The notes under the pieces are model-generated. The model was given only the letters and a program-made list of their open reading frames with translations. It was not told the origin of the DNA and did not search any database. A stretch of DNA of 64,000 bases from IMG/VR virus record IMGVR_UViG_3300045988_063132, positions 32,001-96,000 of that record. The stretch is one strand, 5' to 3'. Position 1 is the first letter of the stretch. Each line of letters begins with the position of its first letter. This DNA comes from a virus. Of the stretch, positions 5,736 to 26,888 are shown piece after piece. Position numbers and translations under genes: made by a program.

Positions 5736-6081
5736 CAGTTTGCAACTTCATTATTTCTTCAGTGGCTGTACTTGCATGTGAATGTAGGTGCAGTCGTCCT
5801 TACTGTGAGAATCAGTGATAAACTTGTGGGGCTCATGTCTTATCAAAAGGGTGGCCAACTTTTAGATAGCATTAGTGCGGACGTTAAAATCAAGTAGATG
5901 ATAAGAATTGTACTGACAATACAATTCTGCTGTATCTTAAAACAAGTTTTGATAGTCAAATTTTCCTAAACCAATCCTCGTTATTAGGTAAAATTTCTTT
6001 TTGTTTACGTATTGCTACAACAATATCCTCACTGTTCATTCGTTATTTGCATTGTAGTTGTAGATACAATGCCGTCATCAA

Positions 6082-8084: not shown

Positions 8085-8410
8085 GAACCTGTGCCGACAA
8101 GTACTGTAAAGCTTATCAATTAATATTAGTGTCTTTACATTTGTAGAGACACTAATACTAGTTAGTGCCGAAAGTTATTAAACCGAATGGATTTAGTAGG
8201 TAATTAAGTTGAATTGACAACTTCCCTCAAGTGCTATATGCCGTAGGGTGGAAAAACAACGTGCCACTGATCATGTGCCGAAGATCATTACTATTGTTTT
8301 AGCTATTGTACTTTATGTCCTGCATAAAAACAATAGGCTCTACTTGTAGAGTTTTATAGTAATGGTTATCAAAACACATATAGAAATTGTGCTTTATGCC
8401 GAAGTTTTAT
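8085..8410. promoter_or_regulatory. intergenic cluster of five or six dispersed direct repeats (G/A)TGCCGAAG plus two palindromes
   Basis: GTGCCGACAAG ~8089, GTGCCGAAAG ~8166, ATGCCGTAGG ~8239, GTGCCACTGA ~8262, GTGCCGAAGATC ~8276, ATGCCGAAGTT ~8397. Hairpin TTAGTGTCTTTAC..GTAGAGACACTAA at 8128-8158. Perfect palindrome CTCTACTTGTAGAG at ~8338-8351. Confidence 0.35.
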
Positions 8411-8856: not shown

Positions 8857-9098
8857 GTTCATATTATTAAAATTATTAAAAGTAGATATTCACAATATAA
8901 GAACTGTATTGTGTCTTATTAGGCTTATTAATCATTGTTAGGACGAGGGTTCGATTAAAATGGTCGAGTTTAAATTGGGTGAATTCAGGGAACGCTAAAC
9001 AAAAATGCTCAGAAATGACATTTTTGCATGCCAATCCTGAGCTAAGCATGTAGTACACTACATGAAAGTGCAGAGACTACTGGAGAACTAAAGTGTTC

Positions 9099-9608
9099 TT
9101 AATTACCAGCTAGAGCGCCCAACCCTTCATTGGAAGGTGAAGAGATAGTCCAAGATTCACGAAACTTTTTAAGTTTCTCCTCAGAAATGAGGTTCCTATG
9201 AACCATTCTATGGCAATTAGGACATAAAGTTATTAAGTTTGTAATTTCATTTTTACCACCGTTAGATACAGGTATAATATGATGAACATCACAAGAAGTT
9301 TTATTCCAACCGCATATTGCACAAGGTTGTAATAATAGAAAATTGTAAAACGATCTAGTAATAGTATTATTAGATTTCATTCTTTTACGATAATCTTTTA
9401 ATTTACAAGCATTTGTACAATACTTTGCTTTAGAAGATTGTGCTTCAAATTCCTGTTCACATACAATACATTTACATTTATATTTCTTTCTATGTAAATT
9501 TCTGTATTTAGCAGCACATGAAAGTGAACAAAATTTTGCATTTCCTCTGTTTACCTCTCGTAAATCAGCTTGGAATTCATTATTACAATATAAACATTCT
9601 TTTTTCAT
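9099..9608 (-). CDS. HNH homing-type endonuclease (169 aa) with N-terminal CxxC zinc-ribbon pairs
   Basis: HNH motif CDVHHIIPVSNGGKNEITNLITLCPNCH; two CxxC...CxxC pairs in the N-terminal half; free-standing on the opposite strand within the plus-strand block. Confidence 0.85.
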   Translation of the reverse strand: MKKECLYCNNEFQADLREVNRGNAKFCSLSCAAKYRNLHRKKYKCKCIVCEQEFEAQSSKAKYCTNACKLKDYRKRMKSNNTITRSFYNFLLLQPCAICGWNKTSCDVHHIIPVSNGGKNEITNLITLCPNCHRMVHRNLISEEKLKKFRESWTISSPSNEGLGALAGN

Positions 9609-9901
9609 ATAACTATAACGTATGTGGAGATAAAATGTTCTAATAACTTAAAAGAATCTGTCCCTCCAGCTCCACGCTCACAAGAGCTACAAGGGAAAAC
9701 AAAACTAGGATTTTTGATCGTGTTGACCGTGCGCCAAGTTTTTAAATTTTAGAACGGTCAAAAGGGGCTGCATGGATTTGACTAGCAAATTAGAGAGATA
9801 AGATAGGTTCATTGTGTGTTTAAATGGCAACACTATGTTTGTCACTGATTATTCTTGCGTAGCGTAAGAATATGATGCGTGCTAAATACGAAAGTTAGGG
9901 A

Positions 9902-9971
9902 TACTCTTTAGTTCAACAGGTTAGAATCGTAATTTTATTACAGAATGTGGGTTCGAGTCCCACAAGAGTAA
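9902..9971 (+). tRNA. tRNA-like gene with canonical T-arm but non-canonical or truncated anticodon arm (possible pseudo-tRNA)
   Basis: 7-bp acceptor TACTCTT/AAGAGTA, D-arm GTTC..GAAT, T-arm GTGGG-TTCGAGT-CCCAC. Only ~18 nt remain for the anticodon arm plus variable loop. Confidence 0.45.
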
Positions 9972-10007
9972 CAATTAACTTATGTTTAATTTCTTAAAAG
10001 TAATCAG

Positions 10008-10385
10008 ATGAAAAAGATGACTTTAAGCCAATTACATGGTAATCTAAAGACTTTCAGTAAAGAATTTATAGGAGCTGGAAGTAGAAATAGTGTAGTTGGA
10101 TTGTATCGGAAACTTATTGAGTTAGGAGCAATTCCATCCAGTAAGGAAAAGGATAACAGTCTTATTAGCTCTAAGCAAAAGATTGTTATTCTATGTGTTA
10201 ACGATGGAATTAGGAGTAAATTCGCTCGTATCTCATTGCATGAAAGATCATGGTGGGACTATTGGCATAACAAAGCACACAAGCATTGTAAGCCAGCTTA
10301 TATTACTTATAATGTACCAAAACAAATGAGTACAGTAATAAGTAACTTAAATATTAAAGAATTAGAAACCCTAATCCCAGAGTAA
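10008..10385 (+). CDS. hypothetical protein (125 aa)
   Basis: ORF track. Confidence 0.5.
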   Translation: MKKMTLSQLHGNLKTFSKEFIGAGSRNSVVGLYRKLIELGAIPSSKEKDNSLISSKQKIVILCVNDGIRSKFARISLHERSWWDYWHNKAHKHCKPAYITYNVPKQMSTVISNLNIKELETLIPE

Positions 10386-18197: not shown

Positions 18198-18701
18198 ATG
18201 AAAAAAATTAAATCAACTGAAATTATTGAAAATCGTAAGAAGTATGACAAAGAGATCAAAAAGATGTGGAATATTATTCGTACTGAAAATTTGATCGATA
18301 AAAACGCTACACGAAATTACGATATGAAAGCATTGTTGGATACAATTACAGAGATGTCCAATAATCGAATTCAGACCAAGCTGGATTCAATTGCTATTAA
18401 TCTAGGTTTTAAGAGTCGTAAAGACTTTCCTAAAGAAAGTATTTATCCTATTATTTATACTCTATCTGAAAAGAATGAGTATTTAGTTCAGTTGGGATCT
18501 ATTCCGACTATTAATCCTGGTTTAAAAGCTAAACTTGGTAAAAAGAAATTGTTTAAAACTGAAGAAATCACTGCAGATTATATTACTAAACTAAAGAATA
18601 AACTGCAGCTGGAAATCAATGCTCTGAAGAAGAAGCTTGAAGATTTCAACAGTAATGCTGAAATAGATATATCTACTGCATATATGTATTTAGCAGCATA
18701 A
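18198..18701 (+). CDS. hypothetical protein (167 aa)
   Basis: ORF track. Confidence 0.55.
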   Translation: MKKIKSTEIIENRKKYDKEIKKMWNIIRTENLIDKNATRNYDMKALLDTITEMSNNRIQTKLDSIAINLGFKSRKDFPKESIYPIIYTLSEKNEYLVQLGSIPTINPGLKAKLGKKKLFKTEEITADYITKLKNKLQLEINALKKKLEDFNSNAEIDISTAYMYLAA

Positions 18702-18709
18702 GGTAAACT

Positions 18710-18828
18710 GGTCTCCGTAAGTTATTTTTAAAGTTCAGCATCTCTATTTATAACTGTGAACTATTCTAATAGCATAAAGTAACATTAAAATAACGAGTGG
18801 CAAGTGGGGTTCGAATCCCCGGAGACCA
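18710..18828 (+). ncRNA. atypical ~119-nt tRNA-like element (7-bp terminal stem plus canonical T-arm)
   Basis: GGTCTCC (18710-18716) pairs with GGAGACC (18821-18827), flanking T-arm TGGGG-TTCGAAT-CCCC(G). About 119 nt between them, too long for a standard tRNA. Confidence 0.35.
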
Positions 18829-18872
18829 ACAAGTCTCGAAATATTAATATTAACATTTTAAAAAGTAAAGTC

Positions 18873-20216
18873 ATGAAAAAAGATATCAAATCTCAAACAA
18901 TTGACAATTCTACCAAAAAATATCCGGTAGAAAGTAAAACATGGAAGTCTGATGTATGTCAGGCTTTGAAATTAGGTTATAAAGTAGAAGCTTTAAATGA
19001 AGAGCAAGCCGAATATATTAAGAAGATTGAAACTAAGCTTGCAGAAAAGGCTGCAAAAGCCAAAGTAAAAGAAGAGATGAAACAAACTCTTCTGAAAAAG
19101 ATGTCAGATATAATGAAAGCTAAGAAAGCAGCAATTATATCTGCAGCCAATGATCTAGCTGATAGAATTATTCTTCGTGCCATTGAGAAAGAAGAGCAGA
19201 AGAAGAAATTCGATGAAACCGACAAGAAAATTAAGGAGAAAGTCAAGAAGGATAAAATGGCAATAGCTGAAAAGAAACGTAAACGTAAAGCAGAATTACG
19301 TAATAAAACTATTCCTAGTCCTGAAGCTATAGCTAATGCTAAGAAACAACAAGATTTTCTTGCAAAAGCTCATGCCGCTAAACGTGAAGAGATTGAAGCT
19401 CGTCTCGATGAGAAAGAAAATTTCATGAATCAATCTGCAGAAGAATGGAGTAAAAAACATGAAGAACGTATTAAACGTAATACGGAACTTGCTCTCAAAC
19501 GATTGCATCACAAAGAGATTAAGCTCAAACGTACTACAAAAGCTGAAAGAATTGAAGCAATTAAAGCTAAGAAAGAAGCTGGTAAAGCAGCTTTCAATGC
19601 TGAAATGAAACGTCAAGCTTCAGAAATTGCAGCAGACCGTCAAGGTTATGCTAATCGCGTAGAGAAACGTAGACGTACTGAAACAGAACGTCTTGCAATG
19701 ATTGCAGAGCGTAGAAAACTACGTAAAGATAAGATTTTTACAGAACATCTTAAACAACAAAAGATTCAGCAATTGAATCTTAAACGTTTTATAGAGTCTG
19801 AAAAAGCTCGTCTAGCACGAAAAGAAGAAAAACGTGCCAAGTATCTTACTACGGGTGGAATAAAAGTTCCCAAAGTAAAGAACAATGTTGCTATAGATAA
19901 AACTAGAGCAGAAGAATATATTAAAGTTGCTGAAACAAAAATGAAAGATGAAAAAGAACGTTATATAATACGTATTGCATCAATTGCTTCATCAGAAATT
20001 GTAAGTGATTCTGTTTGTGCATTCATTTGTAAACCAGAAGAACTTAATAAACGTATGAAAGAAGTTCATAACAAACATATGAAAGAAGAACCCGATACAT
20101 ATGTAGGTATTTATGCTTACTCTGGCATCGGTAAAGATCAGAAATGTGTAAGTGAGATGCTAAACGATAAGTTTAAGGATCGTAGTAGACTTAATCCGAA
20201 AAATGAAGCAGCATAA
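18873..20216 (+). CDS. K/E-rich coiled-coil protein (about 447 aa)
   Basis: Start moved to ATG 18873 because the track start at 18804 overlaps the tRNA-like element. Highly charged repetitive KEE/AKK heptad-like sequence. Confidence 0.55.
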   Translation: MKKDIKSQTIDNSTKKYPVESKTWKSDVCQALKLGYKVEALNEEQAEYIKKIETKLAEKAAKAKVKEEMKQTLLKKMSDIMKAKKAAIISAANDLADRIILRAIEKEEQKKKFDETDKKIKEKVKKDKMAIAEKKRKRKAELRNKTIPSPEAIANAKKQQDFLAKAHAAKREEIEARLDEKENFMNQSAEEWSKKHEERIKRNTELALKRLHHKEIKLKRTTKAERIEAIKAKKEAGKAAFNAEMKRQASEIAADRQGYANRVEKRRRTETERLAMIAERRKLRKDKIFTEHLKQQKIQQLNLKRFIESEKARLARKEEKRAKYLTTGGIKVPKVKNNVAIDKTRAEEYIKVAETKMKDEKERYIIRIASIASSEIVSDSVCAFICKPEELNKRMKEVHNKHMKEEPDTYVGIYAYSGIGKDQKCVSEMLNDKFKDRSRLNPKNEAA

Positions 20217-20250: not shown

Positions 20251-20322
20251 AGCGGGATGGCGCAAAGGTAGCGCGTAGCTTTCACGAGGCTGAGGTTGGT
20301 AGTTCGAATCTATCTCCCGCAA
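20251..20322 (+). tRNA. tRNA; anticodon loop TTCACGA suggests anticodon CAC (Val), to be verified
   Basis: Acceptor (A)GCGGGA/TCCCGC(A), D-arm GCGC-AAAGGTA-GCGC, anticodon stem TAGCT/GGCTG, T-arm GGTAG-TTCGAAT-CTATC. Confidence 0.75.
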
Positions 20323-26635: not shown

Positions 26636-26762
26636 GATATAATTCTATTTGCGCAATAGAACGAAGACTATACTACCTCTGACTTTTGTCATGTAAGTAT
26701 ACCAGATCGTAGGCTGGCACTGACCACACAGGGGGTATTGTTAAAGGTGGAGAAGAGTAAGC

Positions 26763-26866
26763 ACATATTTCTTTAATATAAGAAATGAGCAGATGTGTGA
26801 ATGGGCCTAATACAAATGCTAACTAGCATGTATTTAAATGGGGCGGTTCGAGTCCGCCACTCTTCA
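26763..26866 (+). ncRNA. atypical ~104-nt tRNA-like element (7-bp terminal stem plus canonical T-arm plus internal hairpins)
   Basis: GAAGAGT (26763-26769) pairs with ACTCTTC (26859-26865). T-arm GGCGG-TTCGAGT-CCGCC. Internal hairpins ATTTCTT..AAGAAAT and ATGCT-AACT-AGCAT. Confidence 0.3.
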
Positions 26867-26888
26867 CTTTATTTAAATCTATATCATA

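What the first reader, a model, noticed from the sequence alone, without database searches (positions are those of the whole stretch)
18710..18828. Unusually long tRNA-like elements (about 119 nt and 104 nt) with canonical T-arm and 7-bp terminal stem
Two loci end in a textbook T-arm plus acceptor 3' strand: 18710-18828 GGTCTCC...TGGGGTTCGAATCCCCGGAGACC, and 26763-26866 GAAGAGT...GGCGGTTCGAGTCCGCCACTCTTC. In each the exact 7-nt complement lies about 100-115 nt upstream. A 7-mer match by chance in that span has a probability below 1%, and it occurs twice. Standard tRNAs are 72-90 nt. These could be intron-containing tRNAs, tRNA-like ncRNAs, or attP-like tRNA 3'-fragments. A third element (9902-9971) has a good acceptor, D-arm and T-arm but a truncated anticodon arm. 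One reading of that loop gives UUA, an ochre-suppressor-like anticodon, but this is speculative.
Basis: seen in the sequence. Interest (0 to 1): 0.55.

Follow-up and report, generated by a model that had tools for sequence, protein, structure and literature searches.

The report
tRNA-like punctuation elements in a crAss-like phage
Three intergenic spots in this gut (crAss-like) phage carry RNAs that keep only the top half of a tRNA, the acceptor stem and T-arm, and they most likely act as cutting signals for the host's tRNA-processing enzymes rather than as decoding tRNAs.

Summary
ARAGORN does not call either a tRNA, and Rfam tRNA scores stay below threshold. The window is a Suoliviridae crAss-like phage, about 97% identical to cr1_1.

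In relatives both helices are kept by compensatory changes: all 7 acceptor pairs in E1, and 4 pairs in E2. The region between the helices is free to vary. It ranges from about 20 nt to about 110 nt, and the hairpin tips are replaced wholesale between near-identical genomes.

The slot just upstream of the primase gene is filled in different phages by E2, by a 47-nt mini-element, by other tRNA-like forms, or by genuine tRNA-Met, Arg or Leu. In every case the element ends 16-25 nt before the ATG. The third element (9902-9971) belongs to the same kind and follows a permuted tmRNA gene.

Best reading (inferred, confidence about 0.5): these are tRNA-derived "punctuation" signals cut by RNase P and RNase Z in a polycistronic replication-gene transcript, like plant mitochondrial t-elements. 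The intron-containing-tRNA, suppressor-tRNA and attP readings are not supported.

The parts
18709..18829 (+). E1, a tRNA-like element. It begins 8 nt after the stop codon of ORF 18198-18701 and ends 44 nt before the ATG at 18873. Layout: acceptor 5' strand 18709-18715; CG; GUAAGU; stem GTTATTTT 18721-28; hypervariable AT-rich tip 18729-18786; AAAATAAC 18787-94; invariant GAGTGGCAAG 18795-18804; T-arm 18805-18821; acceptor 3' strand 18822-18828; discriminator A18829.
   Evidence: Sequence. Relatives. Covariation: all 7 acceptor pairs and 1 T-stem pair compensated. Fold: z = -2.6. No tRNA call from ARAGORN or Rfam.
18830..18840 (+). CAAGTCTCGAA, an 11-mer that follows E1 unchanged in all three E1 types even though their acceptor stems differ. 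In the window, GTCTC could also pair with the acceptor 3' strand GAGAC.
   Evidence: Role unknown.
26752..26866 (+). E2, a tRNA-like element ending 21 nt before the primase ATG at 26888. Layout: acceptor 26752-58; D-like arm CACAT/ATGTG 26762-66 and 26793-97, with a variable tip at 26767-87; conserved GAATGGGCC; second hairpin 26808-38; TGG; T-arm 26842-58; acceptor 3' strand 26859-65; discriminator A26866.
   Evidence: Sequence. Rfam tRNA 20.7 bits, below threshold, acceptor and T-arm only. Fold: z = -3.9. Relatives. Covariation.
26636..26751 (+). Conserved structured leader between the upstream ORF's stop codon and E2. It has four hairpins. One exists in two alternative forms with compensatory changes. 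The single-stranded motifs ACGAAGAC and CACUGACCACACAGGGGGUA are invariant. The same leader precedes three different tRNA-like cassettes in relatives.
   Evidence: No Rfam match at E up to 10.
9902..9971 (+). Third tRNA-like element, annotated tRNA-Lys(UUU) in RefSeq relatives. The acceptor, D-arm and T-arm are canonical, but the anticodon arm is only 13 nt. It lies 30 nt after the stop codon of the tmRNA tag reading frame and 36 nt before the ATG at 10008.
   Evidence: Homologues have a 6-nt loop (cr50_1), a 4-nt loop (cr10_1), or are a 43-nt mini-element (cr52_1).
20251..20322 (+). Genuine tRNA-Val(CAC), 54.4 bits. It occupies an equivalent slot, ending 20 nt before the DNA polymerase ATG. 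cr50_1 has a tRNA-Ser at the same place.

Best explanation
E1, E2 and the 9902 element are tRNA-derived "top-half" mimics embedded in the polycistronic + strand transcript of the phage's early/replication module.

Selection keeps only the parts that tRNA end-processing enzymes read:
- the coaxial stack of acceptor stem and T-stem, 11-12 bp long;
- a consensus T-loop;
- a nearby UGG that could form the elbow;
- a discriminator A with no encoded CCA.

The former D and anticodon region has become a free expansion zone.

Proposed mechanism (inferred, not shown):
1. Host RNase P cuts at the 5' end of the element. This defines the 3' end of the upstream mRNA or of the tmRNA coding piece.
2. An RNase Z-type activity cuts after the discriminator. 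This releases the downstream mRNA with a short AU-rich leader of about 15-45 nt.

The elements would therefore act as punctuation, or insulators, between cistrons. Any tRNA-shaped cassette, real or degenerate, could fill a slot.
For: **Shown**
1. The helices are under selection. E1 has 7 of 7 acceptor pairs and one T-stem pair compensated, with 100% pairing. E2 has 4 compensated pairs and 96% pairing.
2. The bottom half is unconstrained. E1 is 66 nt in cr50_1-type and most IMG/VR relatives but 121 nt here, and at least 4 unrelated tips occur among genomes 94-98% identical in the neighbouring gene. The tip of the E2 D-like arm is 5 to 63 nt, and hairpin 2 is 13 to 31 nt. The tips have no second copy in the window.
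3. Slot behaviour. Directly upstream of the primase ATG, different phages carry E2, a 47-nt mini-element, a form resembling a long-variable-arm (class II) tRNA, tandem elements, or genuine tRNA-Met, Arg or Leu. The element's 3' end lies 16-25 nt from the ATG whatever its type. The DNA polymerase slot swaps tRNA-Val for tRNA-Ser.
4. Co-transcription is likely. E1 starts 8 nt after a stop codon. All elements share the strand of their flanking genes. No + strand terminator-like site is adjacent, and promoter-like hits are at chance level.
5. The same operon carries other RNA-processing devices in intergenic positions: a hatchet self-cleaving ribozyme, RAGATH-22 and a group I intron.

**From established knowledge**
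- RNase P, RNase Z and the CCA-adding enzyme recognise the acceptor/T-arm minihelix (my own knowledge).
- Plant mitochondrial t-elements, found with the same GGTTCRANYCC motif, direct RNase P and RNase Z cleavage that forms mRNA ends (PMC1920247).
Against: - No transcript-end data exist, so cleavage is purely inferred.
- E1 (canonical register) has C at position -1 and U at +1, which is not the preferred U(-1)/G(+1) for RNase P. The alternative register does give U(-1)/G(+1).
- E1 and E2 lack a canonical D-loop, so the elbow that RNase P reads may be imperfect.
- The highly conserved leader upstream of E2 (26636-26751) and the invariant CAAGTCTCGAA after E1 are not explained by a simple punctuation model. 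They hint at extra protein or RNA interactions.
- I did not verify that the unknown Bacteroidales host uses RNase Z on CCA-less precursors.
- The E1 slot is not conserved in Loutivirinae, where the genes abut, so the element is not indispensable.
Confidence: 0.5

Rival explanations
1. Trans-acting stable small RNAs. After excision and CCA addition, the tRNA top-half mimics accumulate and act as decoys or mimics. They might titrate a host defence or enzyme that reads the tRNA acceptor/T-arm, or cooperate with the phage tmRNA in ribosome rescue.
For: - The top half is strictly conserved while the rest is free.
- The phage invests in translation-related RNAs: a permuted tmRNA and tRNAs.
- Invariant flanking motifs (UGGCAAG, CAAGTCTCGAA, the E2 leader) suggest specific partners.
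Against: - There is no anticodon loop, so the elements cannot decoy anticodon nucleases.
- Nothing in the sequence points to aminoacylation: position 3:70 is not G-U in E1 or E2.
- Interchangeability with ordinary tRNAs of different identity at a fixed distance from the ATG fits a cis role better.
- This reading is compatible with the processing model and could co-exist with it.
Confidence: 0.15
2. Uncleaved cis-regulatory structures. The folded tRNA-like domain stays on the mRNA. It would act as a 5' stabiliser, a ribosome standby site or an insulator for the downstream start codon, or as a 3' protective cap for the upstream mRNA.
For: - The fixed 16-25 nt spacing to the primase ATG.
- The conserved AU-rich sequence between the element and the ATG.
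- The conserved leader upstream of E2.
Against: - A generic stabilising hairpin would not need a consensus T-loop with a G53-C61 closing pair and a 7+5 stack.
- Real tRNAs at the same slot are certainly excised in order to function.
- A stable structure 16-20 nt from the start codon would more likely hinder 30S binding unless it is removed (inference).
Confidence: 0.15
3. Decaying tRNA pseudogenes with no present function, retained by chance in intergenic DNA.
For: - The anticodon regions are destroyed and vary in length.
- The detectors fail.
- The E1 slot is absent in Loutivirinae.
Against: - Compensatory substitutions keep 96-100% pairing of the acceptor and T-stems across genera.
- The T-loop is invariant.
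- The elements persist in compact phage genomes at constant spacing.
- Decay is confined to the bottom half.
Confidence: 0.08
4. Functional but unusual tRNAs: intron-containing, suppressor or frameshifting decoders.
For: - ARAGORN can draw 9902-9972 with a 7-nt loop AUUUUAU and anticodon UUU.
- Some related loci carry a form with a canonical D-arm (L016).
Against: - No conserved 7-nt anticodon loop exists in E1 or E2, with or without the tips.
- Homologues of the 9902 element have 6-nt, 4-nt or no loop.
- Rfam finds no intron family in E1 or E2.
- The long ORFs read through in the standard code, so no suppressor is needed.
Confidence: 0.04
5. attP-like copies of a host tRNA 3' end used for integration.
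For: tRNA 3' halves are classic integration sites (my own knowledge).
Against: - A full, compensated 5' strand is present.
- The 24-nt 3' halves of E2 and E1 match no tRNA in 185,579 species genomes. E2 gave 0 hits. E1 gave 1 hit, inside a GC-rich coding-like region and not a tRNA.
- The acceptor sequence differs between closely related phages.
- No integrase was seen next to either element.
Confidence: 0.02

Closest known systems
Plant mitochondrial t-elements (tRNA-like processing signals; Hanic-Joyce 1990, Forner 2007, PMC1920247)
   Same: - Non-canonical cloverleaves that keep the acceptor stem and a T-arm with GGTTCRANYCC.
- Embedded in polycistronic or mRNA precursors, next to mRNA 5' and 3' ends.
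- Sit alongside genuine tRNAs that do the same job.
   Different: - The context here is a dsDNA phage of Bacteroidales rather than an organelle.
- Cleavage is not demonstrated.
- The elements carry large, rapidly replaced expansion hairpins and conserved flanking motifs.
- The cassettes are swapped among phage lineages at fixed slots.
mascRNA / MALAT1 and MEN-beta tRNA-like 3'-end processing modules (Rfam RF01684)
   Same: A tRNA-like fold with a defective anticodon arm, used in cis so that RNase P and RNase Z create the end of a longer RNA. The small RNA released receives CCA.
   Different: Eukaryotic nuclear lncRNAs. Rfam gives only a 13-bit T-arm match, so there is no homology.
Canonical tRNA (Rfam RF00005)
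   Same: 7-bp acceptor, 5-bp T-stem, UUCGA(A/G)U T-loop with a G-C closing pair, and discriminator A. Evidently derived from tRNA genes, and positionally exchangeable with them.
   Different: No anticodon loop. No D-arm in E1 and a non-canonical one in E2. Length 115-121 nt. Below the Rfam gathering score or not detected. Not called by ARAGORN.
tRNA-like domain of tmRNA
   Same: Acceptor and T-arm without an anticodon arm. A real permuted tmRNA lies in the same operon, immediately upstream of the 9902 element.
   Different: E1 and E2 have no tag reading frame, no pseudoknots and no G3-U70 pair. ARAGORN and Rfam tmRNA models do not match them.
Small stable tRNA-like RNAs of phage T4 (species 1 and 2), and phage P1/P4 RNAs processed by RNase P (recalled from memory, not checked here)
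   Same: Phage-encoded RNAs that are not tRNAs but have acceptor-like ends matured by host tRNA-processing enzymes.
   Different: The T4 RNAs lie inside a tRNA gene cluster. The P1 and P4 RNAs are antisense regulators. No sequence relationship was tested.

Membership tests
tRNA (RF00005) | Score at or above the Rfam gathering threshold, or a call by a tRNA finder | tested here: not met
   E1: no hit at E up to 10. E2: 20.7 bits against a gathering score of 29. ARAGORN calls neither. The 9902 element does pass (51.7 bits).
tRNA (RF00005) | Anticodon arm with a 5-bp stem and a 7-nt loop, conserved among homologues | tested here: not met
   E1 and E2 have none. Homologues of the 9902 element have 13-nt arms, 6-nt or 4-nt loops, or no arm.
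tRNA (RF00005) | 7-bp acceptor stacked on a 5-bp T-stem, with a UUCRANY T-loop | tested here: met
tRNA-like processing signals (t-element / mascRNA type) | Non-canonical cloverleaf that retains the acceptor stem and T-arm motif GGTTCRANYCC | tested here: met
   Definition taken from PMC1920247.
tRNA-like processing signals (t-element / mascRNA type) | Located inside a longer co-directional transcript, next to coding regions | tested here: inconclusive
   The geometry fits: 8 nt after a stop codon, 16-45 nt before start codons, no adjacent terminator-like site. Transcripts themselves were not observed.
tRNA-like processing signals (t-element / mascRNA type) | Element borders coincide with RNA ends made by RNase P and RNase Z | not testable with these tools
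   Needs end mapping or in vitro cleavage.
tmRNA | tRNA-like domain with a G3-U70 pair, plus a tag reading frame and pseudoknots | tested here: not met
   Not met for E1 or E2. It is met by a separate gene at about 8935-9870 once the intron is removed.
Group I intron-containing tRNA | Group I catalytic core interrupting the tRNA | tested here: not met
   Rfam at E up to 10 finds no intron in E1 or E2. The inserts are 5-63 nt.
attP tRNA 3' fragment | Identity with the 3' end of a host tRNA gene | tested here: not met
   Exact 24-mers are absent from the tRNAs of 185,579 species genomes.
attP tRNA 3' fragment | Adjacent integrase | not tested
   No integrase is annotated in the cr1_1 stretches fetched around E1 and E2. 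Pfam on 10 window ORFs, six of them near E1 or E2, found none. The whole window was not scanned.

The most novel reading that the evidence does not exclude
crAss-like phages carry a modular system of exchangeable tRNA top-half cassettes. After excision and CCA addition, the cassettes persist as a new class of phage small RNAs with a conserved tRNA-mimic handle and a fast-evolving payload hairpin. These would act in trans, for example by titrating or redirecting host factors that read the acceptor/T-arm, or by working with the phage's own two-piece tmRNA. The conserved E2 leader and the CAAGTCTCGAA box would serve as dedicated recognition sites.
Probability: 0.12. Interest if true: 0.8.

Novelty: new variant of a known kind. 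Interest (0 to 1): 0.55.

Why it matters
crAss-like phages are the most abundant viruses of the human gut, yet how their long transcripts are matured is almost unknown.

If the reading is right, these phages would use mitochondrion-style tRNA punctuation. In the same operon they also carry a hatchet ribozyme and a group I intron. This would be a natural set of RNA insulators that borrows the host's RNase P and RNase Z.

The finding also has a practical side:
- The elements are unannotated in the RefSeq genomes checked (cr1_1, cr50_1, cr56_1, cr4_1, cr10_1).
- tRNA finders miss them.
- In cr50_1, cr10_1 and cr52_1 ARAGORN and RefSeq fold the tRNA-like element after the tmRNA into the tmRNA call, or give it an undefined anticodon, and the cr1_1 and cr55_1 copies of the 9902 element carry the label tRNA-Lys.

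The fixed slots with swappable cassettes give a clean system for testing what RNase P and RNase Z minimally need in Bacteroidales.

Full-text searches found no description of tRNA-like elements in crAss-like phages.

Tried and rejected
- **Rfam at permissive E-values.** On E1, E2 and the E2 leader it gave only chance-level hits.
- **Intron-containing tRNA.** Rejected. The inserts are too short for group I introns, and nothing tRNA-like remains in the bottom half once they are removed.
- **tmRNA-like reading of E1 and E2.** Rejected. There is no tag reading frame, no G3-U70 pair and no ARAGORN or Rfam match.
- **attP.** Rejected. The single E1 hit lies inside a GC-rich gammaproteobacterial coding-like region and is not a tRNA.
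- **Antisense or guide role for the hypervariable tips.** No second copy or complement in the window or the fetched loci beyond the homologous sites.
- **Hammerhead or another known ribozyme in the E2 leader.** Inspection shows CUGA but not the CUGAUGA...GAAA core, and Rfam finds nothing.
- **Independent transcription unit.** The sigma-70-type scan is at chance level and no terminator is adjacent. This scan is not designed for Bacteroidales or phage RNA polymerases, so the result is weak.
- **MAFFT alignment of full-length E1.** It misaligned the acceptor across types. I used equal-length core constructs instead. This limits the covariation test to the acceptor, T-stem and, for E2, the bases of the D-like and second arms.
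- **Single-sequence fold of the type C E1.** The minimum-energy fold prefers an alternative pairing, so for that type the comparative evidence carries the argument, not thermodynamics.
- **Literature.** Searches for crAss tRNA-like elements, phage tRNA-like RNase P punctuation, and hatchet ribozymes in crAss phages returned nothing directly relevant.

Full report
**What the window is**

The window is a crAss-like phage: Crassvirales, Suoliviridae, Boorivirinae, genus Culoivirus. It is 96-98% identical to cr1_1 and cr55_1 over the regions tested. Genes on the + strand up to about 31.5 kb form the early/replication module. This includes a DnaG-type primase, a DNA polymerase, a helicase and a metallophosphoesterase. 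The giant virion genes lie on the minus strand.

**Checking the observation**

Both elements exist as described.
- **E1.** The T-arm TGGGG-TTCGAAT-CCCCG lies at 18805-18821. It is followed by an acceptor 3' strand whose exact complement lies about 110 nt upstream. Comparison with relatives favours the canonical register: TGGTCTC (18709-15) with GAGACCA (18822-28), positions 8-9 as CG, and discriminator A18829.
- **E2.** The T-arm GGCGG-TTCGAGT-CCGCC lies at 26842-58. The acceptor is GAAGAGT (26752-58) with ACTCTTC (26859-65), with discriminator A26866.
- **Scan.** A scan for a T-arm plus a perfect 7-bp partner finds only these two and the 9902 element, all on the + strand. Shuffles gave about 0.5 hits.
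- **Detectors.** ARAGORN and Rfam recognise only tRNA-Lys-like 9902-9971 and tRNA-Val 20251-20322. E2 reaches 20.7 bits on the tRNA model through its acceptor and T-arm alone. E1 gets nothing.
- **Folding.** Both fold better than shuffled controls, with z = -2.6 for E1 and -3.9 for E2.

**Comparative evidence for E1**

Homologues fall into three types.
- Type A is the window type, 103-125 nt from acceptor start to discriminator.
- Types B (cr50_1) and C (most IMG/VR relatives) are only 66 nt.

The acceptor stems are entirely different yet fully paired: TGGTCTC/GAGACCA, GATCTAT/ATAGATC and GATTTGT/ACGAATC. On the core alignment all 7 acceptor pairs and one T-stem pair carry changes on both sides. 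Pairing is 100%, no shuffle out of 500 reaches the observed score, and slid registers drop to 28-64%.

Several features are invariant: CG at positions 8-9, UGGCAAG before the T-arm, the T-loop, and an 11-mer CAAGTCTCGAA just after the element.

In type A a stem GTTATTTT/AAAATAAC carries an AT-rich tip of 44-63 nt. At least four mutually unrelated tip versions occur in genomes whose neighbouring gene product is 94-98% identical. The tips fold weakly and have no other copy in the window.

**Comparative evidence for E2**

The E2 family keeps these parts: acceptor, AA(G/A)CACA, a D-like arm, GAAUGGNCC, a second hairpin, UGG, and the T-arm.
- The tip of the D-like arm ranges from 5 to 63 nt, including GC-rich hairpins.
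- The second hairpin ranges from 13 to 31 nt. It shows a U-A to C-G compensation in cr50_1.
- On the core alignment pairing is 96%. Two acceptor pairs and two T-stem pairs are compensated, for example GGCGG/CCGCC, AGCGG/CCGCU, GGUGG/CCACC and AGAGG/CCUCU. No shuffle out of 500 reaches the score.
- G-U pairs in both families show that the + strand RNA is the selected molecule.
- Length changes that are not multiples of three rule out coding sequence. The mechanical ORFs that overlap the 3' parts start upstream of the annotated ATGs.

**Slot behaviour**

I fetched the DNA upstream of 80 primase homologues and examined the 57 distinct upstream regions, including three RefSeq genomes.
- The position immediately before the ATG is occupied by one of: E2; a 47-nt mini-element (GCAAUGU-CUAAUGGUUAGAUUCG-T-arm-ACAUUGC-A, the commonest form); a form with a canonical D-arm, an 11-bp "anticodon" stem and a long variable arm (L016); tandem elements (L018, L047-49, cr10_1); other idiosyncratic tRNA-like forms (cr56_1, cr4_1, L056, L066, L072, L079-84); or genuine tRNAs, namely Met-CAT, Arg-ACG, Leu-AAG and Leu-TAA.
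- ARAGORN accepts only about ten of the 57 as tRNAs.
- The relaxed scan found an acceptor and T-arm partner near the primase start in 44 of the 57, a few of them low-scoring.
- The distance from the acceptor 3' end to the ATG is 16-25 nt whatever the element type. This holds once three groups are corrected for tblastn matches that begin inside the gene.
- In Boorivirinae the exchange happens exactly at the element borders. The upstream flank is a constant leader ending in AAGGUGGA. The downstream flank is a constant ACUUAUUUAAAUCUAUAUCAUAUG.
- The polymerase slot behaves the same way: tRNA-Val here, ending 20 nt before the ATG, and tRNA-Ser in cr50_1.

**The third element and its neighbour**

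RefSeq and ARAGORN label 9902-9971 as tRNA-Lys(UUU). Its anticodon arm is only 13 nt. Homologues have a 6-nt loop (cr50_1, ARAGORN "tRNA-???"), a 4-bp stem with a 4-nt loop (cr10_1), or are a 43-nt mini-element (cr52_1). It therefore belongs to the same kind of element. The UUA suppressor reading has no support.

Following its upstream homology led to an unexpected neighbour, a permuted (two-piece) tmRNA gene.
- Rfam's tmRNA_permuted family scores 60.3 bits in cr50_1 and 49.6 bits in cr10_1, against a gathering score of 47.
- In the window the T-loop of the acceptor piece is split by a group I intron (Rfam 63 bits). The intron carries an HNH endonuclease ORF on the opposite strand.
- Removing 8956-9660 in silico obeys the group I rules: U ends the 5' exon and G ends the intron. 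ARAGORN then calls a permuted tmRNA with tag GNTMFVTDYSCVA*.
- Read from the sequence, the restored acceptor stem pairs GGGGCUG with CAGCUCC, which includes a G3-U70 pair.
- The tRNA-like element sits 30 nt after the tag's stop codon. An RNase P cut there would form the 3' end of the coding piece.

**Mechanism**

What is shown:
- There is selection on a tRNA top half.
- The bottom half is free to vary.
- Position and spacing are fixed, and the elements are interchangeable with real tRNAs.
- The elements share the strand of tightly packed flanking genes. E1 begins 8 nt after a stop codon, and no terminator-like site is adjacent.
- Other RNA-processing devices lie in the same operon: the hatchet ribozyme at 5796-5895, RAGATH-22 at 8094-8273, and the group I intron.

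What is inferred: RNase P, RNase Z and the CCA-adding enzyme read just this top half (established knowledge). The elements would therefore be cut out of the polycistronic RNA, which defines the ends of the neighbouring mRNAs. Plant mitochondrial t-elements, found with the same GGTTCRANYCC motif, do exactly this (PMC1920247). I put this reading at about 0.5.

Rivals:
- Trans-acting tRNA-mimic small RNAs (0.15). This is compatible with excision.
- Uncleaved cis structures that stabilise or insulate the mRNA (0.15).
- Neutral pseudogenes (0.08). This is contradicted by the compensation.
- Odd decoding tRNAs (0.04).
- attP (0.02). The 24-nt 3' halves match no tRNA in 185,579 species genomes.

**What remains unexplained**

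- The leader at 26636-26751 has four hairpins. One comes in two alternative forms with compensatory changes. ACGAAGAC and CACUGACCACACAGGGGGUA are invariant, and Rfam finds nothing. It is more conserved than the tRNA-like cassette it precedes. Its CACUGA(C/U)CA resembles the conserved tail of RAGATH-20 and RAGATH-22.
- The CAAGTCTCGAA box after E1.
- A recurrent GUAAGU motif.

A bare punctuation model does not require any of these.

**Comparison and novelty**

- The elements fail membership of tRNA (anticodon arm, gathering score), of tmRNA, of intron-containing tRNA and of attP.
- They meet the structural definition of tRNA-like processing signals. The defining functional feature, ends made by RNase P and RNase Z, cannot be tested here.
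- Full-text searches found no report of tRNA-like elements in crAss-like phages.
- The elements are unannotated in the RefSeq records checked.
- I rate this a new variant of a known kind, of moderate interest (0.55).
- The intron-split permuted tmRNA is a notable by-product.

Noticed in passing
window 8935-9870 (exon 1 ends at 8955; intron 8956-9660; exon 2 from 9661; coding piece from 9764; tag reading frame about 9826-9867): A permuted (two-piece) tmRNA gene. The T-loop of its acceptor piece is interrupted by a 705-nt group I intron (Rfam 63 bits). Removing the intron in silico makes ARAGORN call a permuted tmRNA with tag GNTMFVTDYSCVA*. The restored acceptor, read from the sequence, includes a G3-U70 pair. 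Intron-less homologues in cr50_1 and cr10_1 pass Rfam's tmRNA_permuted threshold, and RefSeq annotates them as SsrA.
   Followed up: partly
window 9099-9608, minus strand: An HNH endonuclease ORF (Pfam E = 2e-13) lies inside the group I intron but on the strand opposite to the intron and tmRNA.
   Followed up: partly
window 5796-5895 and 8094-8273 (+); also 8250-8286: A hatchet self-cleaving ribozyme (76.5 bits) and a RAGATH-22 RNA (125.6 bits) lie in intergenic positions of the same + strand operon. The RAGATH-22 tail also matches the RAGATH-20 tail. cr52_1 has a full RAGATH-20 upstream of its tmRNA.
   Followed up: no
window 26636-26751 (+): A conserved structured leader upstream of E2. It has four hairpins and compensatory changes in one that exists in two alternative forms. 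Single-stranded motifs are invariant and there is no Rfam match. It precedes three different tRNA-like cassettes in relatives. CACUGACCA resembles the RAGATH-20/22 tail CACUGAUCA.
   Followed up: partly
window 18830-18840 (+): The 11-mer CAAGTCTCGAA follows E1 unchanged in all three E1 types despite their different acceptor stems. It echoes the CAAGT...TCGAA that flanks the T-arm. In the window it could pair with the acceptor 3' strand (GAGAC with GTCTC).
   Followed up: no
window 18729-18786 and 26767-26787; loci L088, L094, L096, L031, L036: The hairpin tips of E1 and E2 are replaced wholesale (5-63 nt, unrelated sequences, some GC-rich) between genomes that are otherwise 94-98% identical nearby. 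No second copy exists in the window.
   Followed up: partly
window 18690-18701 and 20208-20216: The ORF before E1 ends in ...YMYLAA*, and LAA is conserved in the relatives. The next ORF ends in ...AA*. This resembles the C-terminal degron of SsrA tags, in a phage that encodes its own tmRNA.
   Followed up: no
window 20251-20322 (+): tRNA-Val(CAC) has an A1-A72 mismatch at the top of its acceptor stem and ends 20 nt before the DNA polymerase ATG. cr50_1 carries a tRNA-Ser at the same position.
   Followed up: no
window 18717-18722 and 26693-26698; L016, cr56_1 (L005), cr10_1 (L007), L066, L083: The motif GUAAGU (or GUAAGC) recurs in or just upstream of many of the tRNA-like elements and their leaders. 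In some it sits as a possible GUAA tetraloop. Its significance was not assessed.
   Followed up: no
L018; L047-L049; cr10_1 (L007 about 975-1222); L085: Some relatives carry two tandem tRNA or tRNA-like elements in the primase slot, for example a D-arm-bearing long element followed by an E2-type element.
   Followed up: no
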